Shown in pieces: positions 14,637 to 62,251 of a stretch of DNA of 64,000 bases. A model generated the notes under the pieces. It had not been told where the DNA came from. It did no database searches and was given only the letters and a program-made list of their open reading frames with translations. The position numbers and the translations under genes were made by a program. The number at the start of each line of letters is the position of its first letter. Positions within the stretch are counted from its first letter, which is position 1. Source of the DNA: Coriobacteriia bacterium (GTDB lineage: Bacteria; Actinomycetota; Coriobacteriia; Coriobacteriales; Eggerthellaceae); the NCBI GenBank assembly GCA_030540215.1, contig JAUNWR010000002.1, forward strand, positions 10,119-74,118. The letters run 5' to 3'.

Positions 14637-17600
14637 ATGCCGGATATTAAAGAGCATATCGCATACCTGTCGCAGGAAATCGGCGCCCGTCCCGCTGGCA
14701 CCGAAGAGGAACAGCAGGCTGCGTTGTACATTACCGAGCAATTCCAGAAGGAAGCAGGTCTGCCTGCTAACATCGAGGATTTCAACGGGGTTGGCGACCC
14801 TCATCTGCCTAGCATGATCTGCTGCGGCGCAGCTGTGGTGCTCGCCTTGCTGTCGTTGATTGTGCCCGTGCTGAGCATCGTCGGGGTTATCGGCTGCCTT
14901 GCGGCAGCCGGTTTGTTCGCCGCCGAGTATCTGGACAAGCCCATCATCTCGAAGCTTCTGGGGAAAGGCGTGAGCCAAAACGTTGTGGCGAAATACGCCC
15001 CCGCAGCGCCTGATGACGGCGAAGGCGCTCGTCGCCGAAAGGTGATTCTGGTGGCTCGCTACGACACCGGTAAGGTGCGTGCCGAGCTTGCCGGTCCCAC
15101 GGCGCAGGCCATGCCGCTCGTCGGCAAGATCTCCTTCGGCGCGATGGTCGCCCTTCCCGTGCTGCTGCTCATCAAGGGCGTTGCGCTGGGCTCTTCCGAA
15201 GGTACGCTCACCACGATCTTCACGCTGCTGACTGTTATCGCCATGCTGCTCACCGCTATCCCGCTGGCTCTTGGTGCACTGCATCAGACTGCTGCTTACA
15301 ACGAGGGTGCGAACTGCAATGCTTCCGGCGTTGCCGCCCTGCTTGAGCTGGCTCGCCGTATCGGCGCGGGTCGCGTGAGCGAAGCTGAGATCGCCGAGCG
15401 CGAGGATGCCATGATGCATGGACCAGAGGCCGCGTATGAGAGCGGTCTTGTCCCTGAAGGCGCCGAGTTCGTGTACTCCTCCCATCCCCGTTCCTCCATG
15501 GAGGACGAGGAGAGCCTCATCGCCGCCAAGGCTGCAATCTCGGCGTTGTCGGGCAAGCCCGTCGACGGCATGACCGCCGAAGAGGTTGAGCGCAATCTCC
15601 AGAAGATCGAGCGACATGATCGTGAGGAAGCTGAAGAGGAAGCTCGAATGCAGCGCATGGAGGCGCGCGCCATCGAGAGTGCCCGACGCGATGCCGAGCA
15701 GGCTCGTCTTGCGGCAGAGCAGGAGCAGCAGGCTCTTGAGGCTCAGCAGGCAGAGGAAGCCGAAAAGGCTCAGGCAGAGTTCGAGGCTCAGCAGGTGGCG
15801 ATGCAGCAGGCTGAGTTCGAGGCCCAGCAAGCAGCGGCTCAGCAGGCTGCCGCCCAGCAGATGCAGGCTGCCGCGGAGCAACAGCGCGCGGCGCAGGCAA
15901 GCGTGCCCGATTGGTACGCCCGCGCTCAGGAGAAGGCCAAGAAACCCCGTAACGCCGAGAAGCCGGCGCAGCGCTCCCGTTACGCTAGCGCCCTTGATGC
16001 CGCGGTTGCCGAAAGCGCCGGTCATTTCGCGAAGGCGAACAACATCGTCGAGCATGAGCTCGAGCGCTCCTTCGACATCGATCGCGACACCATTCGCGAG
16101 GTTCGCGCTCCGCAGTGGGCGACCATCGCGCCCGTACAGCCCGCGGTGCAGCCTGAAGCCGAGCAGCCGGCGGTGAACGCCGCTCCTGTCAATGCTTCCG
16201 TGAACGCGGCGTCGGCGGTTGAGCAGGCTGCGCAGATGCAGCAGATTCCCGTGCAAGAGGAGCCTGCCGTCCAGATTCCTGCACCTCAGCAGGCAGTCCA
16301 ACCCGTGCAACTCGATGCGCAGATTGAGACGGCTTCTTCTGACGAGCCTGCGGCCACAGCGCCTCAGAACGATGTCGCGGTTGCAGCCCCCGTCCCCGAG
16401 GCTTCCGCTCCTGTGGCCGAGCCCGCACCTGAGCCCGCGGCCGAGCAGATGACCGCTCAGCAGCCCGTCGTGCAGTTCGCCCCTGCGCAGGTTTCCGCGC
16501 CCGAGCCCGTTCAGGCCCAGGTTGTTGCTCCTGCCGAGGTTGCCGATCCCTTCGCCACGGCTGCTACGCCCCCGATCGATGTGACGAAGCTTCATCTTGA
16601 GGACGTTCCCCCGATGGGCGACGTTCCCATGCCCGCGTTCTTGGATCCGCGCAAGGTGCAGGAAGAGGCCCAGTCCCGCCAGTCCGACGCTCCTCGCTCG
16701 GGCAATCGCGTCGACGTGACGCAGGCTTCCATCAACGAGGCCGGCCGTGTCGATGCGGCAAATGCCCCCGCGGTGCCCGTGCCTGCGCCTGTGTCCGAAC
16801 CCGCAGACGAGATGGTGCCGGATCTGCAGGCCAAGCCGCTCGATATTCCGGACGCTTCCGTGGCCCCCATGGCTCCCGTCACCTTGCCGGAGGTCTCCGC
16901 GACCGCCCCGGCGGCCCCCGTTGCGGCGGCTGTGAAGCAGCGCGCTCCGCTTGCCGACGTCGAATCCGCCGGCAAAACCGCGGCACGCAGCTTGCTGAAC
17001 CTGCTTCCTTCCATCGGGTCTTCCGATATCAAGGCGGCTCATGAGCAGGAGGAGGAAGGGGCTGAGGCACCCGGCGAGAAGAAGGATTCCAGGCCTTCCC
17101 TGCTTGCATCCCTGCCTTCGCTGTCCGGCTCGATCAAGGCTGCGGACGCGGCTCAGGCGCAGCCGGGCGTGAACGCTGCGGCAAGCTTCGGCACCGCCGG
17201 TGCAACCGGCTCGTTCGCTCCGGTGAGCAGCGAGCTTGCCAGCACCATGGATCCCGAGGATATGTACGTCGACGATGCGGATGATTCCGCGTATGAGGAC
17301 CACTTCACCGAAACGGGCGCGTTTGCGGGCCCGGGCTACATGGAGATGCCCAAGTCGCGCTTCCGCCGCCTGTTCGACAAGTTCCTCCATCGCAAGGACG
17401 ACGAAGAAGACACGCCGCAGGAGTGGCTCGACGTGGACGACAACTTCGAGGCCCGTGCCGCCGGAAAGGCGCGCGGCGGCTGGGAGAGCTTCCAGGAAGA
17501 GCATTACGAGCAGGGCGAGTATCAGGGTGATTACGCTGTCGAAGCCGATCAGGATGCTGCAGCTTATCCTGGGGCTACGCAGGCTCTGCCCGCTTTGCAG

Positions 17601-37614: not shown

Positions 37615-38502
37615 ATGGAAATGATGAACGAGCAGTCGGAAACCGCCTGCTTCGGCGTTGACGGAGTCCGATATCGTTACCTGTATATGAAGGAGGACAA
37701 TCCCGCCCGCGGTCGTCGCCGCACCCCGGTGCTGTTCGTGCACGGATTCGCGCAAAACGCGCTGTCCTGGTTCCCCACAAGCCGCACCATCTTCCTTGAA
37801 CGCGACGTGTACGGCATCGACCTCGTCGGCCACGGCGGGTCATCGGTCCCGGTCCATCCGGCGCCGTACAGCTTGACGGCCATGGGCGAGGCGCTCCTTG
37901 CCCTTATCAAGCTGATTCCGGGAAAACCCCTGGTCGTTGCCTATTCAATGGGTGGGCGCGTTGCTCTTTCCGCGTTGCTCGAGGTCGGCCCTGCGGCCTT
38001 CGCAAAGCAAACGAGCGGCTTGCTTCTGGAGAGCGTGGGCATGGGGCCGAAAACGCAGGCGGAGCGCGATGCCGCCATCGAGCGCGATGCCGACATGGCG
38101 CGCCGCCTGCGCGAGACGCCGCTGAAGGACTTCATGACCTATTGGGAGAACCTGCCGCTGTTCGAATCGCAGAAGGCGTTGCCGAGGAAGGTTCGCGCCG
38201 CGGTGCGCGCCAACAGGCTTGCCAACGATCCCGAGGCGCTGGCGAAGTGCGTGGAATGCGCTGGGCAGCATCGCATGCCCTCATATCGCGAGACCACGGC
38301 GGCGCTGCGCGACCTCGGCCTGCGCGGCTACCCGGCCCTCTACCTTGCTGGTGAAAAGGACGTGAAGTACAGCAAGCTCGCTGCCGGCCTGCATGAGGAG
38401 GGCATCGTGAGGACGCGCATCGCGCCGAAGGTGGGGCACAACGTTCACCTGGAGGCCCCCGAGGTTTTCGCTGCCTGCGTGCACAGCGTGGCAACGCGCT
38501 AG
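37615..38502 (+). CDS. menH: SHCHC synthase (alpha/beta hydrolase)
   Basis: VHGF, DLVGHG, YSMGGRVAL, WENLPLFESQ, GEKDVKY, GHNVHLE; in men cluster. Confidence 0.88.
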   Translation: MEMMNEQSETACFGVDGVRYRYLYMKEDNPARGRRRTPVLFVHGFAQNALSWFPTSRTIFLERDVYGIDLVGHGGSSVPVHPAPYSLTAMGEALLALIKLIPGKPLVVAYSMGGRVALSALLEVGPAAFAKQTSGLLLESVGMGPKTQAERDAAIERDADMARRLRETPLKDFMTYWENLPLFESQKALPRKVRAAVRANRLANDPEALAKCVECAGQHRMPSYRETTAALRDLGLRGYPALYLAGEKDVKYSKLAAGLHEEGIVRTRIAPKVGHNVHLEAPEVFAACVHSVATR

Positions 38503-49245: not shown

Positions 49246-50568
49246 ATGCACATAGGCTTAAGCCTGATTCTTGTCGTTTTGTTCCTGGCCATGAACGCGT
49301 TTTTCGTTATCGCCGAATTCGCTTTGGTGCGCGTTCGAAAATCCCAGCTCGAGCTGGCCGTCGAGCAAGGCAAGAAGGGTGCGAAAAGCGCCATGTACAT
49401 TGCCGAGAACGTCAACCAGTACCTGTCCGCCTGTCAGCTGGGCATCACGTTGGCGTCGCTGGCATTGGGCTGGTTGGGCGAGCCCGCGTTCTCCGCTCTC
49501 ATCCGCCCGCTGTTCGAGATGCTGCACCTGCCCGAGGCCTTGATCAGCGTGGTGGCCGTGGCCATCGGCTACTTCATCATGACCACGCTGCACGTGGTGG
49601 TGGGCGAGCTGATCCCCAAATCGTTCGCCATCTTCGCAACCGAGCGCTATGCGCTGTTCACGGCCGGGCCGCTCATGGCGTTCTACAAGATCACCTACCC
49701 CATCATGATCCTGTTCAACGGCATCACCAACGGTGTGGTGCGCCTGACCGGCCATGACCCGGCAAACGAGCGCGAGGTGTACACGGGCGACGAGATCAAG
49801 CTGCTCATCGACGAGTCCACGGAAAGCGGTCTCATCGACCCCGAGCAGAACGAGTTCGTGGACAACATCTTCGACCTGGGCGACAAGGACGCCGAGGCCA
49901 TCATGACCCCGCGAACCGATCTGGTGTGCATCGACCTCGAGGATTCCCTGGAGGAGAACATGGCGCTGGTCACGCGCTACAAGTACACGCGCTACCCCGT
50001 GTGCCGCGAGACCAAGGACCGCATCGTGGGCTTCGTGCACGTGAAGGACCTGTACCTGATGCAGAAGGGCTCCACCATCGATGACCTGCCGGTGCGCACC
50101 ATCGAGGCCGTGCCCGAGAGCATCCCCGTGGCGAAGCTGCTGCAGGTGCTGCAGGAGGGCTCTACGAAGATCGCCGTGGTGGTCGACGAGCACGGCGGCA
50201 CGGCCGGCATCGTCACCATGACCGACATCATGGAGCAGATCGTGGGCCACGTCGATGACGAGTACCGCCACGCCGACAGCGAGCTCGTGAAGAAGCTCAC
50301 CGACGACACCATGATGATCGACGGCGGCATGGCCGTGGGCGACTTCGAGGAGCTCATCGGCTTCACGCCCGAGGACGCCGAGGACTGCGAGACGCTCGGC
50401 GGCCTGATCATGGACGTGCTCGACCGCATCCCCTCCGAGGGTGAGAGCCTGACGCTCGAGGGCAAGGAGGCCACGGCGAAGCTGACCGTGGTGCGCATGG
50501 ACCGCCATCGCATCGACCGTGTGAAGCTGGTGCTCACCCCGAAGCCCAAGCAAGAGGAAGACGAATAG
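49246..50568 (+). CDS. Hemolysin-family CNNM/CorC protein (DUF21-CBS-CorC_HlyC), putative Mg2+/metal exporter
   Basis: NAFFVIAEFALV, QLGITLASLALGWLGEP, GELIPK, MTPR, YTRYPV, VDEHGGTAG, TLGG. Confidence 0.93.
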   Translation: MHIGLSLILVVLFLAMNAFFVIAEFALVRVRKSQLELAVEQGKKGAKSAMYIAENVNQYLSACQLGITLASLALGWLGEPAFSALIRPLFEMLHLPEALISVVAVAIGYFIMTTLHVVVGELIPKSFAIFATERYALFTAGPLMAFYKITYPIMILFNGITNGVVRLTGHDPANEREVYTGDEIKLLIDESTESGLIDPEQNEFVDNIFDLGDKDAEAIMTPRTDLVCIDLEDSLEENMALVTRYKYTRYPVCRETKDRIVGFVHVKDLYLMQKGSTIDDLPVRTIEAVPESIPVAKLLQVLQEGSTKIAVVVDEHGGTAGIVTMTDIMEQIVGHVDDEYRHADSELVKKLTDDTMMIDGGMAVGDFEELIGFTPEDAEDCETLGGLIMDVLDRIPSEGESLTLEGKEATAKLTVVRMDRHRIDRVKLVLTPKPKQEEDE

Positions 50569-50628: not shown

Positions 50629-51435
50629 CTACTCAACCTTCACGCCGGCGAAGCGCTCGGCGTTGTGCCAGAGGATGTTCTCCAGCTCGTCCTCGGTGAA
50701 TCCGGCAGTGGTGAGGGTGCGGTACTCCTCGGCGGGATCCCACATGGGGAAGTCGCTGCCGAACATGATGCGGTCGGTGCCCCACATGCGCGTAAGCTCC
50801 ACCGTGCGGCGCTGCCCCAGGAAGAACTGCGAGCTGGACTCGTCAAGGAACACGCGGTCGTTCATGGCCACCTCGTGCAGGATGTCGTAGCCCACTTCGT
50901 AGCGCGACCAGCAGCCGAAGTGCGCCGCGTCCACTACCAGGTCGGGGAACGTGCGCAGGATGTTCACCAGGCGACGCGGATGTGAGAAGTCGTAACGGTA
51001 GTCGCCCGTATGGATGACCACGGGCAGCCCCAGCTGCTCGCAGATGGCGTACACCTCCATAAGGCGCGGGTCGTCCATGTCCACCTTCTGCGTGTCGGGG
51101 TGCAGCTTGACGCCGCGCAGTCCCAGCTTAACTGCGCGCTGCAGCTCGGCCGCGGGGTCCTCGAAATCTTGCTGCATGGCGGCGAAGCCGATGAACTCGG
51201 GGTGCGCCTGGCATTGCTTCGCGATGAAGTCGTTGATGGCGGTGACGGCGTGCGCGGTGGTTGCCACGGAGTGCACGATGAAGTGCGTGATGGGCGCGCG
51301 GTCCTTCGTCGCAAGCAGACCGTCGGCGGTGCCATCGCCGAACATGCCAACGTTGTAGAAGTCTCCGACGGCCTCCACGGCCTTCGGGGCGATTTTGTCG
51401 GGATAGATATGCGCATGCGCATCGATAACGGCCAT
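50629..51435 (-). CDS. Amidohydrolase_2 family metal-dependent hydrolase
   Basis: IDAHAH, GVKLHP, IHTG, AAHFG, FGSDFP; SD GAGGAG. Confidence 0.9.
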   Translation of the reverse strand: MAVIDAHAHIYPDKIAPKAVEAVGDFYNVGMFGDGTADGLLATKDRAPITHFIVHSVATTAHAVTAINDFIAKQCQAHPEFIGFAAMQQDFEDPAAELQRAVKLGLRGVKLHPDTQKVDMDDPRLMEVYAICEQLGLPVVIHTGDYRYDFSHPRRLVNILRTFPDLVVDAAHFGCWSRYEVGYDILHEVAMNDRVFLDESSSQFFLGQRRTVELTRMWGTDRIMFGSDFPMWDPAEEYRTLTTAGFTEDELENILWHNAERFAGVKVE

Positions 51436-51630: not shown

Positions 51631-53595
51631 CTAGTTCAGGCCGTACTCCGCCAGAAGCGCCTGGCCGCCCATGGTGGTGGGGGCGGCGTCGCCGGCCTCG
51701 CCCAGGAAACAGGACGGGCGCACGATGGCCATGCGCTTGCCGTTCTCGCTCTTCACGCGCACCACCTGCATCTTCGTGCGCTCGGCCAGCTCCAGCTCGG
51801 CCTTGCTGAAGTGCGACAGCACCAGCAGGTGCTTGGCCTTCGCCACGCCGCCCATGAAGTCGCGGCGCTCGGAGTCCATGATGCGGTTGCGCTCGCCGTC
51901 GGTGCTGATCACCTCGAAGGCGTTGCGCTGCGGGAAGAAGCCGTCGATGCAGCCGACCACGAACATGTTGTCGTACTCGGTGCCGCACAGGTTCTGCGGC
52001 AGGCAGATGTGCACGACATGCGGGTCCTCGGTCCACACCGGGTCGGAGATGGCGGCCTGCTCGAGCTCGAGCAGGGTCTTCGCCGTCTCGTCGCCCACCA
52101 TGTCGGCGGCGACGGCCTCGAACTCGCTGATGCCCTCGGCGCCGATGGCCTTCATGAGGCCGAAGCCGCGGCGCGTGGCGTTCTTCTCAAGGAAGTCCTG
52201 GCCGGAGCGCCATTTCTCGGCCAGCGTGCGAGCGCGCAGGAACGGTTCCTTCGCGCCGAAACCGGCGTTGCCCACCTGCTGGAGCGCCTGGTACAGCGTG
52301 AGGCCCTCGGCCTCGGCGAAGTCCTGCAGGCCCATCCAGGCGTCGGAGTTCGTCAGCGCGTTGTCGAAGCCGCACCAGCTGCGCCACGCGATCATGTCGG
52401 TGGGGTCGGCAAGCAGGCCCAGCTTCGTGTACGCAACGAGCGCGCGTGAGCGCGTGGAGTCGCGCGGGTCGCCCGCAAGCGTGCCGGCGGCGCCGGCGGC
52501 CGACACGTTGAAGCCGCGGCGGCGCAGCATCTTCTCCACCATGACGGCCCAGCGGCGGTTGGGAACGACCACGCAGGTGTTGGCCTCGCGCGCGTCCTCC
52601 TGGCCGTCCAGCAGCTTGCGCAGGTACTTCGTCAGGCCGTTGAGCTCGTCCTCGGGCGTGTTCCACTTGATGGACTGCACGCCCTGCGGCAGGCCCTCGG
52701 CCCCGGCGGCGCGCTCGATGGGCGTGACGGTGCCGGCGATATAGGCGCTATCCATGTCGCCCTCGGTGCACAGCGCGTCGGCCAGCGCGATGACCTGCGG
52801 GTTTCCGAACGCGCCCTGCAGATGGAACACCTCCACGTCGCGGCGCACGGTCTCGAACTTCAGGAATCCCTCGACGTAGGGGTGGTTGCCGCGCTTGGAC
52901 ATCATCTGGTTGGGGTTGCCCGTCACCATGATCTGCTTGTCGGCCAGCAGGCACAGCACCGTCTGCTCGGCGTGGGAGAAGTTCTGGAAGTCATCGGCCA
53001 GCACGTAGGCGAAGCTGCCGCGAGCGCCATCGCCGGCGTCGCTTTTCAGGAAGTCGGCGGCCAGCATGGGGACCTCGCCGGCAAGCATGGCGCCGCGCAG
53101 CTTCAGGATGCGCGTGGCGTAGGCCAGCAGGTTGTCCGCCGCGGTGCCGGCGTTCCACTCCTCGCGCGGCTCGTAGCCGGCCATCTTGCGGTCCAGGAAG
53201 CCCAGCATGCTGCGCAGCTTGCGCGGATGCTCGCCGATGGTCTTCAAATCCTCCAGGAAGAAGTTGTACTCGGCGCTGTTGAGGATGCGCGGCACGCGGC
53301 CGGTGGCCTCGCGGGCGGCGGGCTCGTCGAGCACCGACACGGCGGCGTCGAGCGCGGTGCACACGCGCACCGACAGGGCGGCGCCGATGAGGTTTGCGGG
53401 AAGGGCGCGGCGCAGGCGCTTGCGGAAGGCCTGCGCGGCGAAGGCGTTGGTGACCGCTACCAAGATGGATGCGGGAGCTTCCCCGTTCTGGATAAGGTGC
53501 GCGCAGCGCGCCACGAGCGCCTGCGTCTTGCCGCTGCGCTCGGCGCCCTCGACCTTGGCGAGGCGCCCATCGAATGCGGCGATGGTATCTATCAT
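51631..53595 (-). CDS. UvrD/PcrA-like SF1 helicase homologue with degenerate motifs
   Basis: EGAERSGKT, VAVTNAFAA, LADDFQN, VTGNPNQ, CGTEYDNMFVVG, SERRDFMGGVAKAKHLLVLS occupy the positions of motifs I-VI; SD AGGGAG. Confidence 0.82.
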   Translation of the reverse strand: MIDTIAAFDGRLAKVEGAERSGKTQALVARCAHLIQNGEAPASILVAVTNAFAAQAFRKRLRRALPANLIGAALSVRVCTALDAAVSVLDEPAAREATGRVPRILNSAEYNFFLEDLKTIGEHPRKLRSMLGFLDRKMAGYEPREEWNAGTAADNLLAYATRILKLRGAMLAGEVPMLAADFLKSDAGDGARGSFAYVLADDFQNFSHAEQTVLCLLADKQIMVTGNPNQMMSKRGNHPYVEGFLKFETVRRDVEVFHLQGAFGNPQVIALADALCTEGDMDSAYIAGTVTPIERAAGAEGLPQGVQSIKWNTPEDELNGLTKYLRKLLDGQEDAREANTCVVVPNRRWAVMVEKMLRRRGFNVSAAGAAGTLAGDPRDSTRSRALVAYTKLGLLADPTDMIAWRSWCGFDNALTNSDAWMGLQDFAEAEGLTLYQALQQVGNAGFGAKEPFLRARTLAEKWRSGQDFLEKNATRRGFGLMKAIGAEGISEFEAVAADMVGDETAKTLLELEQAAISDPVWTEDPHVVHICLPQNLCGTEYDNMFVVGCIDGFFPQRNAFEVISTDGERNRIMDSERRDFMGGVAKAKHLLVLSHFSKAELELAERTKMQVVRVKSENGKRMAIVRPSCFLGEAGDAAPTTMGGQALLAEYGLN

Positions 53596-53760
53596 GTGAA
53601 ACTCCCTTCGGTAGCGGCTATCTGGGGCCCCGTCGCGCGCGCACGGCACGCGGCGGGGCGGTTTTCAAAAGGTGGCGAAGGCGTTGCCGCGCATGCGGCG
53701 CCCTCGGGCGGGCGCGGCGGTTCGGCGGCGGGGCGCGCTCACGGCCCCCGCAAAAGGCCC

Positions 53761-54603
53761 TTAGGCCTCGAACACCTTGCTCGTGCCGTCAGTATACTCC
53801 ACGGTCCACGTGCGGTACGTCGGCGTGAACGTAGGCTCATCAAGTTCGAACACAAGCTCCGGCGGCTCCATGCCGCCGCCGTCGACGGCGCCCTCGCCCG
53901 CAGCGGCGCGCGCGTCGGCCTTCACTAGCTCGGGCGACTCCAGGAACGCCTCGGCCGCGGCCTCTTCGGCGGCGACGCGTTCGGCTTCGGCAGCTGCCTC
54001 GGCCTCGGCGGCGGCTGCCTCTTCGGCGGCCTTGCGCTCGGCGAACGCGACGGCGCCGGCTTCCACCTGCGCGGCCCAATCCTCGTCGGAGGGCATGCTC
54101 ACGCGGGCGATCGTGCCGGCGTCGCCCAGCTTGCCCTCGTTGTAGGCGTCGCGCACGAGCGAGAGCATGTCGGCGGCGTCCTCGGCGATGCCGCTCACGT
54201 CGTCCATGCGCAGGCGCACGGGCAGCGTGCCGTTCTGCAGGTCCACCTCAAGCCACGTAAACGCAAGCTCGCTTCCGTCCTCGATCTCCTTTTGGCGCTT
54301 GTTATAGATGAGCGCCTGGTTGCCCAGCTTGCGGAACTGGTTGCGGAACCAATCGCGCATCACGTCGTTCCACAGCTCGTCGGAACCTTCCTCGCCGGCC
54401 GCCAGGTACTGGCGCGTGCCCAGCTTCACCAGCATGCGCATGGTGTTCTCCGCCGGGGCGTCCTCGCCCGCGGCGGCGTGCGTGCGCACCAGCGTCGAGC
54501 CCACGTAGGCGTAGCTGCGGCCGACCTCCAGGCGCAGCTCCTCGGAATCCACGCGCTCGTCCAGGTCCAGTATCAGCGTCATCGAAGGCCTTGGTTGTGC
54601 CAT
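53761..54603 (-). CDS. Acidic hypothetical protein
   Basis: 280-aa ORF with host-like codon usage, Ala/Glu-rich helix and C-terminal WTVEYTDG; no recognisable family. Confidence 0.8.
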   Translation of the reverse strand: MAQPRPSMTLILDLDERVDSEELRLEVGRSYAYVGSTLVRTHAAAGEDAPAENTMRMLVKLGTRQYLAAGEEGSDELWNDVMRDWFRNQFRKLGNQALIYNKRQKEIEDGSELAFTWLEVDLQNGTLPVRLRMDDVSGIAEDAADMLSLVRDAYNEGKLGDAGTIARVSMPSDEDWAAQVEAGAVAFAERKAAEEAAAAEAEAAAEAERVAAEEAAAEAFLESPELVKADARAAAGEGAVDGGGMEPPELVFELDEPTFTPTYRTWTVEYTDGTSKVFEA

Positions 54604-54726
54604 GTCCTATACCCCTAACTCTTCGTTCGGCGAATGCTCCGCGGGCTGCCCGAATCGGGCCCGCCCCAGGTCGTCCGCCTGCGTCCTCTTCGCTAACCAA
54701 AGTATAAATGCCCAGTTCAGCGCAAA

Positions 54727-54803
54727 ATCATCCCGCAAGGATGATATGCGCGCGCTCATACATCCCACCCTTATGATTCCCGCCCGGCGCACCGCCGTAC
54801 CAT
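54727..54803 (+). promoter_or_regulatory. Putative activator boxes and promoter of the molybdoenzyme operon
   Basis: Palindrome ATCATCC-N5-GGATGAT (54727-54745); degenerate copy 32 bp later (54759-54777, 12/19 identical); -10-like TACCAT at 54798-54803. Confidence 0.55.
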
Positions 54804-54966
54804 CGGGTCATCGCATTGGGAACGCCGCGCCGTAGCCGCATCCGGCCCGGCCGCCACCTCCTCCCTCCCTTCCCCCTTGCAGGCGGAGGCAGGGTGCCGG
54901 CACGGCGCCGCGTTCCCAATGCGGGAGACGAAGGAGAAACGAATCAGAAAAGGAGAGGAGGGGCAT

Positions 54967-57900
54967 ATGGCGAAACTTTCTTTGACTCGCCGCAGCTTCC
55001 TGAAGGCGTCCGCTATGGCGGGTGCCGCCGCAACCGTGGGGTTCGCGGCAGCGCCGTCCGCGGCTTTGGCCGAGGGCGCCGATCCGACGGCCGGCGAAGT
55101 GAAGCGCATCCGCTCGTGCTGCCGCGCGTGCGGCAAGGTCGAGTGCGGCACGTGGGTCACCGTTCAGGACAACAAGGTGATCAAGGTCGAGGGCGATGAG
55201 TCCAACGCTCACAGCCGCGGCCACTGCTGCGCGAAGTCCCAGTCGTCGATGCTCGCACTGTACCATCCCGATCGTTTGCGCTACTGCCTGAAGCGCACGA
55301 ACCCCAAGGGCGAGGACGATCCCGGTTGGGTCCGCATTTCCCTGGCCGACGCCTTCGACGAGGCCGGCGCCAAGCTCAACGAGATCGTGGAGAAGTACGG
55401 CGGAGAGGCCAACTTCGCCATGGGCGGCACGTCCCGCGTGTGGGCGCAGCCCCCGTACGGCACGCTGAAGTCCATCTTCCCGACCCCGAACGCCCATCTG
55501 GCGTACGAGATCTGCAAGGGCCCGCGCCACTTCGCCGGCATCCTGACCGACGAGATCGGCTCGCCCTGGATGGAGGTCGAGCAGGGTCCGCTGGTGTACG
55601 TGCAGTGGGGCACCGCCGCCGAGTACTCCAACTACGACTCCACGAACCGTACGGTCGTGGACTGCTCGCAGCGCGCTTACAAGCATATATTGGTGGACCC
55701 GCGCATGACGCCGCTGGGAAAGGAAGCCGACCTGTGGCTGCCGCTGCGCGTCGGCACCGACCTGTGCCTTTCCCTGACCTGGCTCAAGTGGATCCTGGAC
55801 AACGAGGCCTACGACGACCTGTTCGTCCGCCGTTGGACCAACGCCCCGTTCCTGTGGAACCCCGAGAAGGACGGTCGCACGAAGAAGGGCTGGTTCCAGG
55901 AGATGAACGGCGGCGTGGATATGGAATCCCGTATCCTGACCGAGGCCGACGTCGATCGCGAGTGGATCAGCCAGTGGTGGGAGCCTGCGGACGAGAAGTA
56001 CAGCTATCGCCGCTTCATCTGCTGGGACGAGAACAACAACAAGCCCACCTACTGGGATGCCGAGGCCTGCCAGTGGGAAGGCGAGAAGCATAAGATCCCG
56101 ACGACCGGCACCTGGATCGAGCATCCGTACAAGCCGATCATCGCCGATGCGTGGCTGCCCGACCCGTCGCACTTCGCCGACCCGGCCGATTCGTCCTACG
56201 ACGCGTACTGGACCGAGGGCAACGAGGGCGGCAAGAAGTCCAACCCCATGGGCCTGCCGAAGAACCCCGCGCTGTTCCCCGGCGGCGTGGACATCAAGCT
56301 GAAGAACGGCACCACCATCAAGGCCGGCACCGTTTGGGAGGCCTTCTCCGACAGCCTGTCCGAGTACACGCCCGAGTACTGCGAGAGCGTGACCGAGGTT
56401 CCCGCCGAGAAGATCGTCGAGGCCGTGAAGATCTACACCACGCGCCTGAACCCCCTGCACGGCAACGGCGGCATCCATTACCAGCTGGCTCCCGACCAGA
56501 CGGGCCACGCGGTGCAGAACTCCCGCGCCTTGCAGCTGATCGCCTGCATCACCGGCAACTCCGACGAGCCCGCCGGCAATCGTGGCTCCTCCAAGGCCGA
56601 GGTCGACGGCTGCTGCGGCCGTGCGAACATGAAGGTCACCGACCATGCCCCGCAGGACTGGGGCATCCGCGACGGCGTCGGCTCCATGGAGCTGGGCGAC
56701 ACCCCGCGCGACCTGTCCATCGAGGACCAGGTGCCGCTGATTCAGAACTTCGTGCAGCACCTCATCGACGTGAAGTCCCCGCTGGCCGAGCGTTACGGCA
56801 ACCACGTGCCCTCCGCCGAGGAGGCTCGCTGGATCGCCGAGCGCAAGGGCGGCGCCTACAAGAGCTCCCGTACGTGGCCGGGCCTGAAGACCAGCTTCGA
56901 CAGCAACGCCAAGCAGATCTCCGCAGAGCGCTTCCCGCTGCTTCGCTACTGGAACCGCTGGGCCGACTCCGCGACCATCTGGGACTCCATTAACGGCATC
57001 GACACCCCGTATCAGATCCATGGCGGCGTGTGCATGTCCGGCGACTTCATGAACGAGTCCAACCTGCTTGAGGCCTGGGAGGCCCTGACCCGCCTGGACT
57101 TCTGGCTGGACTTCAATCTGTGGAGCTGCCCGAACAACGGCTGCGCCGACATCGTCATCCCCGTCCTGCATTGGCTCGAGGTCAACACCGGCCGCGTGTC
57201 CCAGGGCGCCGGCGGCATCTTCGGCGCAGGTCAGCGCGCCGTCGAGCCGATGGGCGACTGCATCTACGACCCGGTCGCCGTCATCTGCCTGTACCTGGGC
57301 ATGGCGAAGGCGGTCTCGGGCAAGGAGCATCCGACCCGCGCCGACATCCCCGCCGACCGCAGCGCCGTGATCTGGAACGACCGCGACCTGAACTACGACG
57401 GCTGGAACAACCTGGACTACAACGAGTTCGTGCAGATGGGCGGCAGCATCACCTACGAGCAGCAGGAGTACCGCGTGCTCAAGGACGCTACCGACTGGTG
57501 GCGCATCGAGGAGTTCAAAGACAAGGAGAGCAAGCCCGAGCAGGTCATCCCGGCCTTCCCGAGCTACGCTTCCGCCGAAAAGCCCGCCCAGGTCGCCAAC
57601 GACGTGGCCGGCCCGGACTTCCCCGAGTACGCCGCGAAGTTCCAGGAAGAGGGCTGGTTCGACTGCCGCAAGTGGCATCCCGAGCGTTGGGGCACGTATC
57701 GTCGCTGGGAGATGGGCTACCGTCGCCAGCAGGGCGGCTACAACCTGTACGCGGCCATCGACGAGAAGTGCGGCTTCATGACCCCGACCGCCAAGGTCGA
57801 GGTGTGGTCCACCATCGCCGAGACCTACATCCCGGACACCACCAAGACGTTCGCGGAGAGCTGCAGCCCGGATCGTGCCGCCTATGACGGGAAGATCCCC

Positions 57901-58758
57901 GACATCGACAAGTTCCCGCACTGGTTCGAGCCGAAGAACTCCAAGGTGGAGGCCCCGCGCTACTACCACAAGGACCAGGCGGACCAGATCGCCACGACGG
58001 ACTCCTACATCAATGACAACTACAAGGGCGATCATCTGATGGAGGAGTACAAGGAGAACCTGCAGAAGTACGGCGACGACCATGCGTTCATCATGACCAC
58101 CGGTTCCCGTCAGCCCGTGTACTTCCACTCCGAGCACCGTCAGCTGCCCTGGTGCCGCGAGCTGTGGCCGTCCCCGCGCGTCGAGATCAATCCGAAGGAC
58201 GCCGCGCGCATGGGCATCGAGCAGGGCGACTGGGTGTGGATCCGCACGCCGTGGGGCGCCGTCCGCGAGGTGGCCGACCTGTACTACGGCATCAAGGAAG
58301 GCACCATCAACGCCAACCATGCCTGGTGGTACCCCGAGATGGACACCGCGAGCCACGGCTTCGAGCTGGTCGGCATCAACTGCTGCATGGACAAGTACGC
58401 CCAGTGCTGGGTGTGCGGCGCCTCGCAGCTGCGCGGCATCCCGGCGCTGATCTACAAGGCCACGCCGGAGAACTCCCCGTTCAAGAACCCGGTGCCGTGC
58501 GATCCGAAGGGCAACCCCGCCATCACGAACGCCAACGACCCGCGTCTGAAGGAATGGCTGTCCAACGACCCGCGTTTGGCAGACGCCAAGGTGGAGCTGA
58601 CGTTCGCCAACATGGATGCGAAGGGCTGCAACCCGTCCATCCAGTCCCCGGAGGCCCTGGCCACCGGCAAGCTGCCCAAGGGCGAGCGCGGAAGCGATGC
58701 CCTCGGCCAGTACAGCAACAAAGGCCAGCTGAGCGATGCGCTCGGCTCCTACAAATAA
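54967..58758 (+). CDS. Tat-exported bis-MGD molybdoenzyme catalytic subunit, catechol dehydroxylase (Dadh/Hcdh/Cadh)-like
   Basis: SLTRRSFLK Tat motif; CCRACGKVECG..HCCAKSQSS FeS motif; YHPDRL, GTSRVW, EICKGPR, VQWG..SNYD, YFHSEHRQLPWCRE, all recalled as typical of the Eggerthella dopamine dehydroxylase clade. Confidence 0.88.
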   Translation: MAKLSLTRRSFLKASAMAGAAATVGFAAAPSAALAEGADPTAGEVKRIRSCCRACGKVECGTWVTVQDNKVIKVEGDESNAHSRGHCCAKSQSSMLALYHPDRLRYCLKRTNPKGEDDPGWVRISLADAFDEAGAKLNEIVEKYGGEANFAMGGTSRVWAQPPYGTLKSIFPTPNAHLAYEICKGPRHFAGILTDEIGSPWMEVEQGPLVYVQWGTAAEYSNYDSTNRTVVDCSQRAYKHILVDPRMTPLGKEADLWLPLRVGTDLCLSLTWLKWILDNEAYDDLFVRRWTNAPFLWNPEKDGRTKKGWFQEMNGGVDMESRILTEADVDREWISQWWEPADEKYSYRRFICWDENNNKPTYWDAEACQWEGEKHKIPTTGTWIEHPYKPIIADAWLPDPSHFADPADSSYDAYWTEGNEGGKKSNPMGLPKNPALFPGGVDIKLKNGTTIKAGTVWEAFSDSLSEYTPEYCESVTEVPAEKIVEAVKIYTTRLNPLHGNGGIHYQLAPDQTGHAVQNSRALQLIACITGNSDEPAGNRGSSKAEVDGCCGRANMKVTDHAPQDWGIRDGVGSMELGDTPRDLSIEDQVPLIQNFVQHLIDVKSPLAERYGNHVPSAEEARWIAERKGGAYKSSRTWPGLKTSFDSNAKQISAERFPLLRYWNRWADSATIWDSINGIDTPYQIHGGVCMSGDFMNESNLLEAWEALTRLDFWLDFNLWSCPNNGCADIVIPVLHWLEVNTGRVSQGAGGIFGAGQRAVEPMGDCIYDPVAVICLYLGMAKAVSGKEHPTRADIPADRSAVIWNDRDLNYDGWNNLDYNEFVQMGGSITYEQQEYRVLKDATDWWRIEEFKDKESKPEQVIPAFPSYASAEKPAQVANDVAGPDFPEYAAKFQEEGWFDCRKWHPERWGTYRRWEMGYRRQQGGYNLYAAIDEKCGFMTPTAKVEVWSTIAETYIPDTTKTFAESCSPDRAAYDGKIPDIDKFPHWFEPKNSKVEAPRYYHKDQADQIATTDSYINDNYKGDHLMEEYKENLQKYGDDHAFIMTTGSRQPVYFHSEHRQLPWCRELWPSPRVEINPKDAARMGIEQGDWVWIRTPWGAVREVADLYYGIKEGTINANHAWWYPEMDTASHGFELVGINCCMDKYAQCWVCGASQLRGIPALIYKATPENSPFKNPVPCDPKGNPAITNANDPRLKEWLSNDPRLADAKVELTFANMDAKGCNPSIQSPEALATGKLPKGERGSDALGQYSNKGQLSDALGSYK

Positions 58759-58777: not shown

Positions 58778-59437
58778 ATGGCAAATTACGCGATCATCAC
58801 CGACCTGAACCGTTGCACCGGCTGCCTGGCCTGCACGGTCGCCTGCAAGGCGATCAACGGCGTCGACGTCGGCAACTTCTGGATCAAGACGCTGCGCATC
58901 GGTCCGCACCCCATCGAGGGCGGCTCGGGCGATTACCCGGACGTGGAGATGTACTTCCTTCCGGTCCAGTGCCAGCACTGCGCCAACCCCGAGTGCGTGC
59001 GCGTGTGCCCGACCGGCGCGTCCCATATCCGCGAGGACGGCACCGTGCAGATCGACAAGTCCAAGTGCATCGGCTGCCGCTTCTGCGCCCTGGCCTGCCC
59101 GTACGGCGTGCGTTACCTCAACGAGGAGGAGCGCGTCGTCGAGAAGTGCACCATGTGCGAGCAGCGTATCAGCCAAGGCGAGCTGCCGCAGTGCGTGGCC
59201 CAGTGCGGCGCCCGCGCCCGCTTCTTCGGCGACCTTGACAAGGGCGTCGACAACTTCGAGGGCCCGGCGCATCCTGACAGCCCGGGCTGCCAGTACGACG
59301 AGATGACCAAGACCCGCGTCAAGCTCAAGGACTACGTCGAGGCGTACAAGGAAAGCGATATCCATCATCTCAAGGATGCAGGTAACAAGCCCAAGCTGAT
59401 GTACCTGCTCCGCGAGGGCCGAAAGTGGAGGGAGTAG
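58778..59437 (+). CDS. 4Fe-4S electron-transfer subunit (DmsB-like)
   Basis: CTGCLACTVAC, CQHCANPECVRVCP, CIGCRFCALACPY, KCTMC..PQCVAQC. Confidence 0.95.
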   Translation: MANYAIITDLNRCTGCLACTVACKAINGVDVGNFWIKTLRIGPHPIEGGSGDYPDVEMYFLPVQCQHCANPECVRVCPTGASHIREDGTVQIDKSKCIGCRFCALACPYGVRYLNEEERVVEKCTMCEQRISQGELPQCVAQCGARARFFGDLDKGVDNFEGPAHPDSPGCQYDEMTKTRVKLKDYVEAYKESDIHHLKDAGNKPKLMYLLREGRKWRE

Positions 59438-59441
59438 ACTC

Positions 59442-60359
59442 ATGAATCCGGAATGGCCTCTAATCCTCTTCACCTTCTTCCTGTGCCTGTCCGGCGGCAT
59501 CTTGGGCGCACAGGGCCTGCTCACCGTGCTCGGCAAGGGCAAGAAGATGCAGAACGTGGCGCTCATCGCCGCGCTGGCGACGCTCGTGATCGGCGGCATC
59601 TGCGTGTTCATGCACCTGCAGCATTGGGAGCGCATCTTCAACGCGTTCGGCGCGCTGCTCGCCGGTAACGGCTACGGCGTGTCCGGCATCACCCTCGAGC
59701 TGTGGGGCTGCGTCGTGGAGTTCATCGCGATCGCGCTGTTCTTCCTGTTCGCCCGCCGCGCCGAGGACGGCGTCGCCCCGAAGTGGGTCGGCGTCCTGGC
59801 CATCATCGTGGGCCTGGCGCTTCCCATGGTCACCGGCGACTCCTACTTGATGCCGTCGCTGCCCACCTGGGATAACCCGCTTCTGATCGTGTACTACCTG
59901 ACGAACACGATCTTCATGGGCGGCCTGGCCGCGCTCGTGATCGCCGGCCTGACCGGCGACGTCGAAGCTCGCGACTTCATGGTCAAGACCGCTCTGGCCG
60001 GCGCCGTGGCCCAGCTGGCCATCGTGCTGGTGTACGCGATCATGATCAACGGCTCCGCCGCCACGTACTCCGCCGACATCGCGTTCTACTTCGACCCGAC
60101 GCTGCCTGACGTGCCCATGGTCGACCGCGCCGCCGTCGTCGGCAGCCTGCTGGCCGGCTCCAATGCCCTGATGTTCTGGCTGGGCGCCATCATCGTCGGC
60201 ATCGTCGCCCCGGCCGCCATCCTGTGGTTCGGCAAGGCGAACGATGGCCAGCAGCTGGCCATCTACGCCGGCGGTGCAGGCGTGTGCTGCATCATCGGCG
60301 GCATCATCTGGCGCGTGCTCCTGTACTCGGCAGCGATGCACATCTTCGCCCTGTTCTAG
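59442..60359 (+). CDS. Membrane anchor subunit (DmsC/NrfD-like)
   Basis: EWPLILFT, HLQHWERIFNA, SGITLE, PTW; about 8 TM segments. Confidence 0.9.
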   Translation: MNPEWPLILFTFFLCLSGGILGAQGLLTVLGKGKKMQNVALIAALATLVIGGICVFMHLQHWERIFNAFGALLAGNGYGVSGITLELWGCVVEFIAIALFFLFARRAEDGVAPKWVGVLAIIVGLALPMVTGDSYLMPSLPTWDNPLLIVYYLTNTIFMGGLAALVIAGLTGDVEARDFMVKTALAGAVAQLAIVLVYAIMINGSAATYSADIAFYFDPTLPDVPMVDRAAVVGSLLAGSNALMFWLGAIIVGIVAPAAILWFGKANDGQQLAIYAGGAGVCCIIGGIIWRVLLYSAAMHIFALF

Positions 60360-60576
60360 GAAGCGAAGGCCGCAGGGCCGGTTCTGGTCGGCCGGCCCTG
60401 CGGGCGAACAGGCGGGAAAACGCCTGCTCGCAAGCTGAAAAGGCGTGTTGGAGGGGGCTTACCTGAACGCCCCGCTTTCGGCAACGGAAGCCCCCTCATA
60501 TACGCGTTTTCGCAAAGCCCCCGTCGGGGCTTTCACGCATAGGAAGAGGAAACGAAAGACACGGAGAGGGGTCTTC

Positions 60577-61311
60577 ATGAGCGAGGAGAAGAAGGAAGGC
60601 GCGCAGGCCGCCGCCCCGCAGGACGTCGGCGCAGCTGCCGATGCGGCGCTCGCGCAGCCTGCTGCGAAGAAGGCGAAGGAGCCTATGAGCGTTTCGCGCC
60701 GGTCGCTGCTCATCGGCGTGGGCAGCACGGCCGCGCTGCTGGGATTGGGCGCCCTGCGCTATGCCGGCCACGTGCCGCTGAACCGACCGCCGGGAGGTCA
60801 GGACGAGGCGCACCTGGTCAGCGCCTGCATCCGCTGCGAGAAATGCTACGAGGCGTGCCCGCGCCACGTCATCAAGCCGGCGAAGATCGAGGACGGCCTT
60901 CTGGGGATGCGCAGCCCGCAGCTGGACTTCAGCGCCGATTACTGCGACTTCTGCGCCGAGGAGAACGGCGGCGTGCCCCTGTGCGTGGCATCGTGCCCCA
61001 CCGAGGCGCTGCAGCTTCCCGCCGGCGCCGACGCGCACAACACCATCATCGGCCTGGCCGAGATCGACCCCAAGACGTGCCTGGCGTTCCGCGATACGGG
61101 CTGCCATTTCTGCTTCGACGCTTGCCGCGATGCCGGCTACGACGCCATCCAGCTCGACGGCAACGGTTACAGCCCGCGCCCGTACGTGATCGGGGACAAG
61201 TGCGTCGGCTGCGGCGCCTGCGAGAGCGTGTGCGTGTCGCTGCAGCAAGGTTCCATCGTCGCAGGAGCCACCGAGCGCGCCATCGTCGTCCGTCCCGCGT
61301 CCTCGCTGTAA
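60577..61311 (+). CDS. NapG/MauM-like Tat-anchored polyferredoxin
   Basis: SRRSLL, RPPGG, CIRCEKCYEACP, CDFC..LCVASCPT, CHFCFDAC, CVGCGACESVC. Confidence 0.9.
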   Translation: MSEEKKEGAQAAAPQDVGAAADAALAQPAAKKAKEPMSVSRRSLLIGVGSTAALLGLGALRYAGHVPLNRPPGGQDEAHLVSACIRCEKCYEACPRHVIKPAKIEDGLLGMRSPQLDFSADYCDFCAEENGGVPLCVASCPTEALQLPAGADAHNTIIGLAEIDPKTCLAFRDTGCHFCFDACRDAGYDAIQLDGNGYSPRPYVIGDKCVGCGACESVCVSLQQGSIVAGATERAIVVRPASSL

Positions 61312-61321
61312 GGGGGTTGTC

Positions 61322-62251
61322 ATGAAATTGAGCAAGATCCGTACCATCGTGGCGGCCGCCGTGTTCTGCATCCTGGCCGTGGGCCTGATCGCGGGCATCA
61401 ACATGGGCACGCTGTCCGGTTTCGGTTTCGATTCGTTCAGCGCGCTGTGCCCGCTCGGCGCCATCACCACCATGTTGGCGACCAAGACCCTGGTCCCGCG
61501 CGCCGTGTTCAGCATCATCATCATGGCGCTGCTGGTGTTCCTGTTCGGCCGTGCGTTCTGCGGCTGGATCTGCCCCGTCCCCGTGCTGGGCAAGCTGCGC
61601 GCGTTCTTCCGTTCGCCGAAGAAGCGCCGCGAGCTGGAGCAGGCGAAACGCGACGAGGCGCTCGATATCGCCAAGCTCGAGCTGGGCTGCGGCGGGAAGG
61701 GCGGTTGCGAGAGCTGCAGCGCCTGCAAGCAGCAGTGCGCCAAGCTGGATTCGCGCCATTACGTGCTGGGCGGCGCGCTGCTGTCCACGGCCATCTTCGG
61801 CTTCCCGGTGTTCTGCCTGGTGTGCCCCATCGGCCTGACCTTCGCCACCGTGCTGGTGTTCTGGCGCCTGTTCGCCAACGCGGACATGACCGTGGCCGTG
61901 GTCCTTATCCCGTTGATGCTGATCATCGAGCTGGTGTTCCTGCGCAAATGGTGCACGCGCTTCTGCCCCATGGCCGGCCTCATGAACCTGATGAGCCGCT
62001 TCAGCCGCACGTTCAAGCCCGTCATCGACGACGCGAAGTGCCTGGAGACGTCGAAGGGCACGGTGTGCAGCCGCTGCGCGATGGTGTGCGAGGCCGACAT
62101 CAACCTGCGCCATCCGGACTACGGCGAGCGGACGCTGGCGGACTGCACGCGCTGCAACGCCTGCGTGGACGCTTGCCCGGCAAGCGCCATCACCATGCCG
62201 GTGGTCGCCAAGCGCGGCAAGGCCGTGAAGCTGGCGCCGAACGAGAAGTAA
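61322..62251 (+). CDS. NapH/MauN-like membrane ferredoxin
   Basis: LCPLG, GRAFCGWICP, FCLVCPIG, WCTRFCP, CTRCNACVDACP. Confidence 0.9.
   Translation: MKLSKIRTIVAAAVFCILAVGLIAGINMGTLSGFGFDSFSALCPLGAITTMLATKTLVPRAVFSIIIMALLVFLFGRAFCGWICPVPVLGKLRAFFRSPKKRRELEQAKRDEALDIAKLELGCGGKGGCESCSACKQQCAKLDSRHYVLGGALLSTAIFGFPVFCLVCPIGLTFATVLVFWRLFANADMTVAVVLIPLMLIIELVFLRKWCTRFCPMAGLMNLMSRFSRTFKPVIDDAKCLETSKGTVCSRCAMVCEADINLRHPDYGERTLADCTRCNACVDACPASAITMPVVAKRGKAVKLAPNEK

What the first reader, a model, noticed from the sequence alone, without database searches (positions are those of the whole stretch)
51631..54603. Pseudo-helicase plus acidic partner gene divergent from a catechol-dehydroxylase-like operon: candidate undescribed accessory or regulatory module
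Seen: a 654-aa UvrD/PcrA-like protein with nearly every SF1 motif altered. Walker A is GAERSGKT; Walker B is DDFQN instead of DEFQD (catalytic Glu to Asp); motif III is GNPNQ instead of GDxDQSIY; the motif IV NYRS arginine is absent (AFGN); motif V TIHxAKGLEF is replaced by LPQNLCGTEY; motif VI YVAxTRA is replaced by MGGVAKA (no Arg finger). The ORF is full length with normal codon usage, so it looks maintained rather than decaying. It sits downstream of a co-oriented 280-aa acidic unknown, and the pair shares a 363-bp divergent intergenic region with the molybdoenzyme operon. Established: characterised Eggerthella lenta catechol dehydroxylases are controlled by nearby 12-TM LuxR regulators, and none is present here. 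Inference: a nucleotide-binding but non-translocating helicase fold, with a partner, may have been repurposed for expression or maturation of the respiratory operon, for example through RNA polymerase or the structured 5' UTR.
Basis: partly seen in the sequence, partly recalled or inferred. Interest (0 to 1): 0.75.

Follow-up and report, generated by a model that had tools for sequence, protein, structure and literature searches.

The report
Dead helicase serving polyphenol-respiring enzyme
A gut bacterium keeps a helicase-shaped protein that lacks the residues such motors use to split ATP, beside genes for an enzyme predicted to remove a hydroxyl group from a dietary polyphenol; a published relative is needed for making such an enzyme, and this one likely works as a binding clamp rather than a motor.

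Summary
The 654-aa UvrD-fold protein is under purifying selection and lacks the catalytic Glu and the Arg finger, as does most of its family (Glu 0 of 64, Arg 7 of 64). The module is not undescribed. The locus is the orthologue of the Eggerthella lenta hydrocaffeic acid dehydroxylase (hcdh) cluster (enzyme 82% identical). The protein is a paralogue of DadhD, a 'predicted helicase' whose deletion abolished Dadh expression (PMC11887054). The 'no LuxR' premise fails: an HcdR orthologue lies on another contig, and its promoter shares a palindrome with the 363-bp region that occurs nowhere else in the assembly. Not found in print: DadhD itself has no Walker A; ten loci carry a half-length copy without the nucleotide-binding domain; a basic helix in domain 1B is conserved family-wide. 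The acidic gene is not DadhE and is uncharacterised. Most likely an AddB-like dead motor that binds nucleic acid to let the operon be expressed (0.45); a maturation scaffold (0.3) is the main rival. No target and no binding partner is shown.

The parts
51631..53595 (-). 654-aa UvrD-fold pseudo-helicase (P0001), hcdh-clade member of the DadhD family. K23 (Walker A) kept, D201-D202 in place of DE, K586 in place of the Arg finger, conserved basic helix 118-136, C-terminal GGQ tail
53761..54603 (-). 280-aa acidic protein (P0002), no Pfam family, not DadhE; first gene of the predicted leftward transcript
54701..54706 (-). predicted -10 hexamer (TATACT) of the leftward promoter, conserved in orthologues
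   Evidence: function inferred
54725..54747 (.). palindrome ATCATCC-N5-GGATGAT, predicted HcdR operator; only other genomic site is upstream of the hcdR orthologue on C140
54761..54777 (.). second, degenerate box (CATCC-N4-CTTATGAT) next to the predicted -35 of the enzyme operon
54798..54803 (+). predicted -10 hexamer (TACCAT; TAGAAT/TACAAT in most orthologues) of the enzyme operon
   Evidence: function inferred
54811..54925 (+). long leader hairpin with a pyrimidine-rich loop; not beyond chance and not conserved
54967..58758 (+). TAT-exported molybdoenzyme, 1263 aa, 82% identical to the hcdh-cluster enzyme of L047; predicted hydrocaffeic acid dehydroxylase
58778..59437 (+). 4Fe-4S subunit (HcdhB-like, 89% to L047)
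59442..60359 (+). DmsC-type membrane anchor (HcdhC-like)
60445..61311 (+). NapG-like ferredoxin (ORF limits; true start may be further in)
61322..62251 (+). NapH-like membrane ferredoxin

Best explanation
This UvrD-fold protein lacks the catalytic glutamate and arginine finger, sits in the accessory part of a predicted hydrocaffeic acid dehydroxylase (hcdh) cluster, and likely works as a non-moving, cluster-specific nucleic-acid clamp that the cell needs in order to make the molybdoenzyme. Steps: (1) hydrocaffeate-bound HcdR, encoded on another contig, switches on both divergent promoters through the palindromic boxes (activation of hcdh shown in E. lenta; the boxes are inferred); (2) the acidic gene and the pseudo-helicase are co-induced (shown in E. 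lenta RNA-seq, genes mapped by order); (3) the pseudo-helicase binds the enzyme operon's transcript or transcription complex with its 1B/2B surfaces, probably holding but not splitting ATP, as AddB does (inferred); (4) without it no enzyme protein accumulates (shown for the paralogue DadhD only). A second, separable job with the acidic protein needs only domain 2A plus the C-terminal tail (inferred from half-length homologues).
For: Deleting dadhD, like dadR and unlike dadhB or dadhE-H, abolished Dadh expression; Cadh accessory genes could not replace Dadh ones (PMC11887054 passages). P0001 is 27% identical to DadhD over 578 aa, E 2e-34 (DadhD located by a published primer). DadhD and its clade lack Walker A (9 of 9), so its job cannot need the standard ATP cycle. 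Walker B Glu 0 of 64 and 2 of 150, Asp 62 and 146. All four SF1 subdomains are kept (pLDDT 94; Z 38.5, rmsd 4.4, 590 aligned to UvrD). A basic 1B helix is conserved in all clades: K/R in 60, 52, 56 and 59 of 64 at four positions. AddB has the same pattern of kept and lost motifs and reads a sequence (PMC3321194 passages). Helicase clades follow enzyme clades (hcdh 20 rows, 99; dadh 9 rows, 100; quick tree). Of 151 family genomes 52 have both helicase and enzyme, 1 helicase only, 6 enzyme only, 92 neither.
Against: No target found: leaders vary from about 70 to 280 nt with no conserved structure; the purine tract before the SD is also in 2 of 4 helicase-less leaders and missing from some helicase-linked ones. 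The canonical ssDNA-contact residues of motifs Ia, III, IVa and V and the GIG motif are not kept (roles recalled). Six genomes have this enzyme type without any family member, so it is not universally needed. Intact copies persist where the operon is gone (L037, L051). The gene is frameshifted in L047. The deletion result is for a paralogue without Walker A, in a heterologous host; I could not see Fig. S1A, so whether mRNA or protein was measured is unknown.
Confidence: 0.45

Rival explanations
1. It is an enzyme-specific maturation scaffold: it binds the large apo-molybdoenzyme, with the acidic protein, TorD and the DadhE-like protein, and protects it from degradation until cofactor insertion and TAT export. 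Loss of protein in the dadhD deletion would then be turnover.
For: The gene lies in one predicted operon with torD, dadhE and napGH in many clusters; clades track enzyme clades; accessory sets are cluster-specific; nucleic-acid motifs are degenerate; half-length copies without 1A/1B, five also without most of 2B, are kept in 10 loci.
Against: Deleting the TorD-like dadhF left Dadh detectable while deleting dadhD did not; the paper reports predicted contacts with Dadh for DadhE-H but names none for DadhD; the best conserved surface is basic; every locus with a half-length copy also keeps a full-length one.
Confidence: 0.3
2. It is a soluble co-activator of the membrane-bound 12-TM LuxR regulator, needed for initiation at the enzyme promoter.
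For: dadR and dadhD deletions give the same result; dadR-dadS-dadhD are consecutive and co-oriented; all 5 helicase-less clusters examined have a LysR, not a 12-TM LuxR, beside the enzyme gene.
Against: Clusters with a LysR and a helicase exist (L079, L082, L090, L096, L138); E. lenta has 74 such LuxRs against 3 helicase copies in G093; in this genus the helicase stayed with the enzyme when the cluster split.
Confidence: 0.15
3. It is still a slow ATPase or helicase that clears RNA structure or R-loops in the long G+C-rich operon, with Asp and Lys standing in for Glu and Arg. This is closest to the authors' 'predicted helicase'.
For: Walker A GK[TS] in 54 of 64 and 145 of 150; Asp fixed at the Glu position; Lys at the finger in 35 of 64.
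Against: DadhD, the one member shown to be needed, has no Walker A; motif III, IV and V residues are not conserved.
Confidence: 0.07

Closest known systems
DadhD (Elen_0475) and its counterparts in the E. lenta hcdh and cadh clusters (PMC11887054)
   Same: Homologous (27%, E 2e-34 to DadhD; 58-63% to the hcdh-cluster gene); same accessory context; co-induced with the enzyme.
   Different: P0001 keeps Walker A and has a C-terminal tail, DadhD has neither. Here the cluster is split, with torD, dadhE-like and hcdR on another contig. The paper treats DadhD as a predicted helicase; the passages read do not note the lost motifs.
AddB / RecC inactivated SF1 domains (PMC3321194)
   Same: Four-subdomain UvrD fold; AddB keeps Walker A and the Mg-binding Asp and has lost the catalytic Glu, Arg finger and motif III; model matches AddB at Z 26.6, rmsd 3.4, 418 aligned.
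   Different: Stand-alone, no nuclease domain, no partner motor nearby, tied to respiration rather than repair; closer in structure to UvrD than to AddB; sequence reading not shown.
PcrA / UvrD / Rep SF1A helicases
   Same: Closest fold (Z 38.5) and Pfam PF00580 above cut-off (38.3 bits).
   Different: Catalytic and coupling motifs altered; no Q motif and no C-terminal domain; the genome has its own canonical PcrA.
HelD / HelR RNA-polymerase-binding SF1 proteins
   Same: SF1-like fold used in transcription (Z 23.9, 334 aligned).
   Different: Much weaker match than UvrD; HelD's polymerase-channel arms are not seen in the model; HelD is an active NTPase (recalled).
DadhE (Elen_0476)
   Same: Acidic hypothetical protein in the same kind of cluster.
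   Different: No sequence similarity to the 280-aa protein (E 0.2); the DadhE-like gene of this cluster is on C140.

Membership tests
DadhD-type accessory helicase-domain proteins | Homology to DadhD and to the hcdh-cluster gene | tested here: met
DadhD-type accessory helicase-domain proteins | Encoded in an Eggerthella-type catechol dehydroxylase cluster | tested here: met
   enzyme 82% to L047, which carries the paper's hcdh primer; enzyme tree
DadhD-type accessory helicase-domain proteins | Needed for expression of the enzyme | not testable with these tools
   shown for DadhD only
Active SF1A helicases (PcrA/UvrD/Rep) | 1A/1B/2A/2B fold | tested here: met
Active SF1A helicases (PcrA/UvrD/Rep) | Walker A GK[TS] | tested here: met
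   GKT at 22-24; 54 of 64 in the family
Active SF1A helicases (PcrA/UvrD/Rep) | Walker B catalytic Glu | tested here: not met
   Asp202; Glu 0 of 64, 2 of 150
Active SF1A helicases (PcrA/UvrD/Rep) | Motif VI Arg finger, motif IV Arg, motif III aromatic loop, motif V TxH | tested here: not met
   Lys586; AFGN; GNPNQMMSKR; LPQNLCGTEY
Active SF1A helicases (PcrA/UvrD/Rep) | ATP-driven unwinding | not testable with these tools
   needs purified protein
AddB/RecC | Inactivated SF1 core with Walker A and Mg-binding Asp kept | tested here: met
AddB/RecC | C-terminal nuclease(-like) domain and adjacent addA/recB motor gene | tested here: not met
   654 aa fully covered by the helicase core; no such neighbour
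AddB/RecC | Sequence-specific single-strand binding | not testable with these tools
   no candidate target found
DadhE (for the 280-aa protein) | Sequence homology to DadhE | tested here: not met
   separate DadhE-like gene on C140
Tautomerase/MIF superfamily (for the 280-aa protein) | beta-alpha-beta fold | tested here: inconclusive
   best Z 6.1, rmsd 3.8, 91 aligned; within the range of common arrangements
Tautomerase/MIF superfamily (for the 280-aa protein) | Catalytic Pro at the mature N-terminus (recalled) | tested here: not met
   invariant Pro is residue 6

The most novel reading that the evidence does not exclude
Eggerthellaceae turned a duplicated UvrD into a family of stand-alone, motor-dead sequence readers, each matched to its own dehydroxylase operon, that license expression after the LuxR switch; the acidic protein docks on the 2A domain and tail and links this licensing to enzyme assembly. 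This would be an AddB-type reader used for gene expression rather than DNA repair.
Probability: 0.3. Interest if true: 0.8.

Novelty: new member of a known kind. Interest (0 to 1): 0.5.

Why it matters
Catechol dehydroxylases set human exposure to dietary polyphenols and dopamine, and they could not be expressed heterologously without their accessory genes. The one accessory gene whose loss removes the enzyme is annotated as a helicase. Showing that the family is motor-dead, and that DadhD has no P-loop, changes what should be tested and gives specific mutants (Walker A Lys, 1B basic helix, tail). It also predicts hydrocaffeate respiration and a split HcdR regulon in Senegalimassilia.

Tried and rejected
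Complex prediction of P0001 with P0002 gave 'no answer' (runs 0.00, 0.68, 0.00): no evidence either way. Search for natural fusions of the acidic protein in 631-2000-aa proteins found none, weak evidence. Public runs X1-X3 are contigs with low shares and cannot show expression. Sigma-70 and terminator scans found nothing above chance. Leader hairpin: z -1.64, 11 of 200 shuffles as good; rejected as a conserved target. Purine tract before the SD: 27 of 57 helicase-genome leaders at or above 0.75 against 4 of 301 background genes, but helicase-less leaders gave 0.48, 0.55, 0.72, 0.72; not specific. Fold searches for the acidic protein gave no clear match; ESM Atlas gave only its own cluster at 0.87 and UvrD_C clusters for the helicase half. 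The idea that the acidic gene is DadhE was tested and dropped. One dadhD deletion primer did not match L044. In some searches the TorD and DadhE-like queries were translated from the wrong strand, so positions are right and strands flipped; corrected queries were used. mis-called frames in low-GC loci and was replaced. The careful tree did not finish; one search is the quick tree. A Fisher test on co-occurrence overstates because kin are not independent. Earlier-findings look-ups returned nothing.
Full report
Observation. The two ORFs, their lengths, the 363-bp divergent gap and every quoted motif are in the sequence. P0001 scores on Pfam UvrD-helicase at 38.3 bits (cut-off 23) and far below the PcrA/UvrD/Rep cut-offs. 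Aligned with UvrD and with the genome's own canonical PcrA on C88, it keeps Walker A GKT, the first Asp of Walker B and the motif III Gln, and has Asp for the catalytic Glu, Lys for the Arg finger, and no motif IV Arg, motif III aromatics or motif V TxH. Its model is a full four-subdomain SF1 fold (pLDDT 94.1) closest to DNA-bound UvrD (Z 38.5, rmsd 4.4, 590 aligned; Foldseek E 7e-32), with no residues left for PcrA's C-terminal domain. dN/dS is 0.07-0.21 in 8 within-genus pairs and 0.28 and 0.40 to two more distant relatives; the acidic gene gives 0.14-0.24 in 7 pairs, the enzyme 0.05-0.09 in 5.

What the locus is. Named relatives at 97-99% are mostly Senegalimassilia. Locus L047 has the same gene order, an enzyme 82% identical, an acidic gene 50% identical and a helicase gene 58-63% identical, and carries an exact match to the hcdh accessory primer of PMC11887054. 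So the window holds an hcdh-type cluster; substrate identity is inferred. In E. lenta A2 RNA-seq the two genes after hcdh (02816, 02817) rise with hydrocaffeate by log2 7.75 and 5.8 (PMC7028382 supplement 2a); I map them to the acidic gene and the helicase by gene order, and the 1193-aa Hcdh length agrees. 02817 also rose with catechin (3.86) while hcdh is not in that list.

It is described. PMC11887054 names a helicase-domain protein DadhD, a hypothetical DadhE, a TorD-like DadhF and ferredoxins DadhG-I. dadhD-H were needed for activity, only dadR and dadhD deletions abolished Dadh expression, and the authors propose that DadhD acts on the locus or the mRNA. A dadhD deletion primer matches just upstream of L044:13634-15496 (its partner did not match). 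That 620-aa protein is 27% identical to P0001, E 2e-34. DadhE (L044:15644-16462, placed) is unrelated to the 280-aa protein.

The regulator is not missing. hcdR is not next to hcdh in E. lenta and is essential for induction (PMC9734109 section 12). Here an HcdR orthologue (59%), TorD (76%), a DadhE-like gene (64%) and a small exported protein lie together on C140; 4 of 4 congeners have the orthologue. The palindrome at 54725-54747 occurs at two places in the 1.95-Mb assembly at up to 2 mismatches: here and upstream of that hcdR; the same two places carry it in 10 of 10 orthologous clusters checked. Binding is inferred.

Family. With an 84-row profile, 53 of 151 family genomes have a member and 58 have a Dadh-type enzyme; comparing the tables gives 52 both, 1 helicase only, 6 enzyme only, 92 neither. 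The six have only canonical-length weak hits on re-search. In 301 phylum genomes strong hits (over 500 bits) were only in the family; the best outside was 159 bits. Of 64 helicase-bearing stretches examined (61 loci that I chose from the hits, plus three from this genome), 61 hold an enzyme subunit, torD or napG/H; L068 has only a ferredoxin, a LuxR hit and the acidic gene, L051 and L064 none. L037 has lost the operon and kept the helicase. Both paralogues in this genome are beside such operons. Kin are not independent.

Motifs across the family. In 64 full-length proteins: GK[TS] 54, Walker B Glu 0 (Asp 62), motif III Gln 11, Arg at the finger 7 (Lys 35). In the best 150 of the representatives search: Lys 145, Glu 2 (Asp 146), Arg 13 (Lys 86); these were ranked by the same profile and so lean towards it. 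Nine of the ten without Walker A form one clade (support 100, quick tree) that contains DadhD and sits by enzymes 83-100% identical to DadhA; P0001 is in a 20-row clade (99) beside hcdh-type enzymes, two rows excepted. What is conserved instead is a basic helix in 1B and a loop in 2B where UvrD has its GIG motif.

The pair. Ten loci have a 189-337-aa homologue made of domain 2A (five with most of 2B) and the C-terminal tail, without the nucleotide-binding half; nine lie directly after the acidic gene, and all ten loci also have a full-length copy. Among 75 proteins with a complete C-terminus, tail and adjacency go together in 26, tail alone 5 (one adjacent in reverse order), adjacency alone 1, neither 43; the tailed proteins are related, so this is few events. 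The acidic protein folds well (pLDDT 90.7), has no Pfam family, was found only in this family (20 of 301 class genomes), is absent from the dadh cluster, occurs in some clusters away from the helicase, and has a distant subfamily not linked to these clusters.

Mechanism. The required member cannot run the ATP cycle, the fold and a basic surface are kept, the deletion removes the enzyme where chaperone deletion does not, and AddB is a precedent for this motif pattern reading a sequence (PMC3321194). I therefore favour a motor-dead nucleic-acid clamp acting after or alongside HcdR activation (0.45). Against it: no conserved leader or target, degenerate contact motifs, six genomes without it, orphan copies, and a frameshift in L047, although near-identical public proteins are intact at 644 aa. 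A maturation scaffold (0.3) and a LuxR co-activator (0.15) remain open.

Literature seen. PMC11887054: passages, part 4 of 7 of the text, rows of the spreadsheet; its SI PDF with Figs S1-S2 could not be read and may bear on how expression was measured, on whether the motifs were noted and on how the acidic gene is labelled. PMC7028382: passages, supplement file 12 parts 1 and 3; files 13-14 not searched. PMC9734109: passages and sections 10, 12. PMC3321194, PMC11873931, PMC13515148, PMC11585353, PMC7745125: passages. Searches found no other paper on these genes; the library lacks most subscription journals. The names HcdhD, class and tail labels are mine; residue roles beyond those are recalled.

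Verdict. Real feature, known kind of accessory gene, open mechanism. Interest 0.5.

Noticed in passing
G000 C140:36188-40755: The other half of the hcdh cluster (torD, dadhE-like, 153-aa exported protein, hcdR) lies on another contig; in G076 hcdR is about 107 kb from the helicase on one contig, so the split is real in this genus.
   Followed up: yes
G000 C22:1423-16171 and C7:7936-22256: Two more Eggerthella-type dehydroxylase clusters of unknown substrate, each with a helicase paralogue; the C7 copy spans an N gap. A fourth enzyme on C131 has no accessory genes beside it.
   Followed up: partly
window 54686-54706 (-); C140 ~37825-37850; L047 ~16450-16475: Both accessory transcripts are predicted to start with the same GCGAAGAG just after a TATACT/TATAAT hexamer; seen in about 11 of 19 hcdh intergenic regions.
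   Followed up: no
window 54925-54966 and enzyme leaders in L042-L138: Unusually purine-rich tract, often with ACGAG/ACGAA repeats, before the SD (27 of 57 leaders vs 4 of 301 background genes); not specific to helicase presence.
   Followed up: partly
window 54853-54879; L044, L058, L059, L091, L095 leaders: Pyrimidine runs that could pair with the extended SD lie in the leader; absent in L047, L066, L094, L100.
   Followed up: no
L047:11643-13578: The hcdh helicase gene is frameshifted near codon 99; near-identical public proteins are intact.
   Followed up: partly
L044:18263-19483: A transposase gene interrupts the napH-like dadhH.
   Followed up: no
L126, L128, L135, L136, L137: All five helicase-less enzyme clusters examined have a divergent LysR regulator.
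   Followed up: partly
L122, L124, L125, L127, L129, L130, L131, L133, L134: A distant, longer subfamily of the acidic protein outside dehydroxylase accessory operons, several beside a flavodoxin-like gene.
   Followed up: no
L082:8302-12131: Two full-length helicase paralogues in tandem.
   Followed up: no
window 50629-51435 (-) and 49246-50568 (+): Amidohydrolase and CorC/hemolysin-family genes flank the module only in this genus and one close relative; not part of it.
   Followed up: partly
P0002 model, residues 8-110: Weak structural match to DinI, an acidic RecA-binding protein (Z 5.2, rmsd 2.7, 68 aligned); within noise, but its neighbour is built of RecA folds.
   Followed up: no
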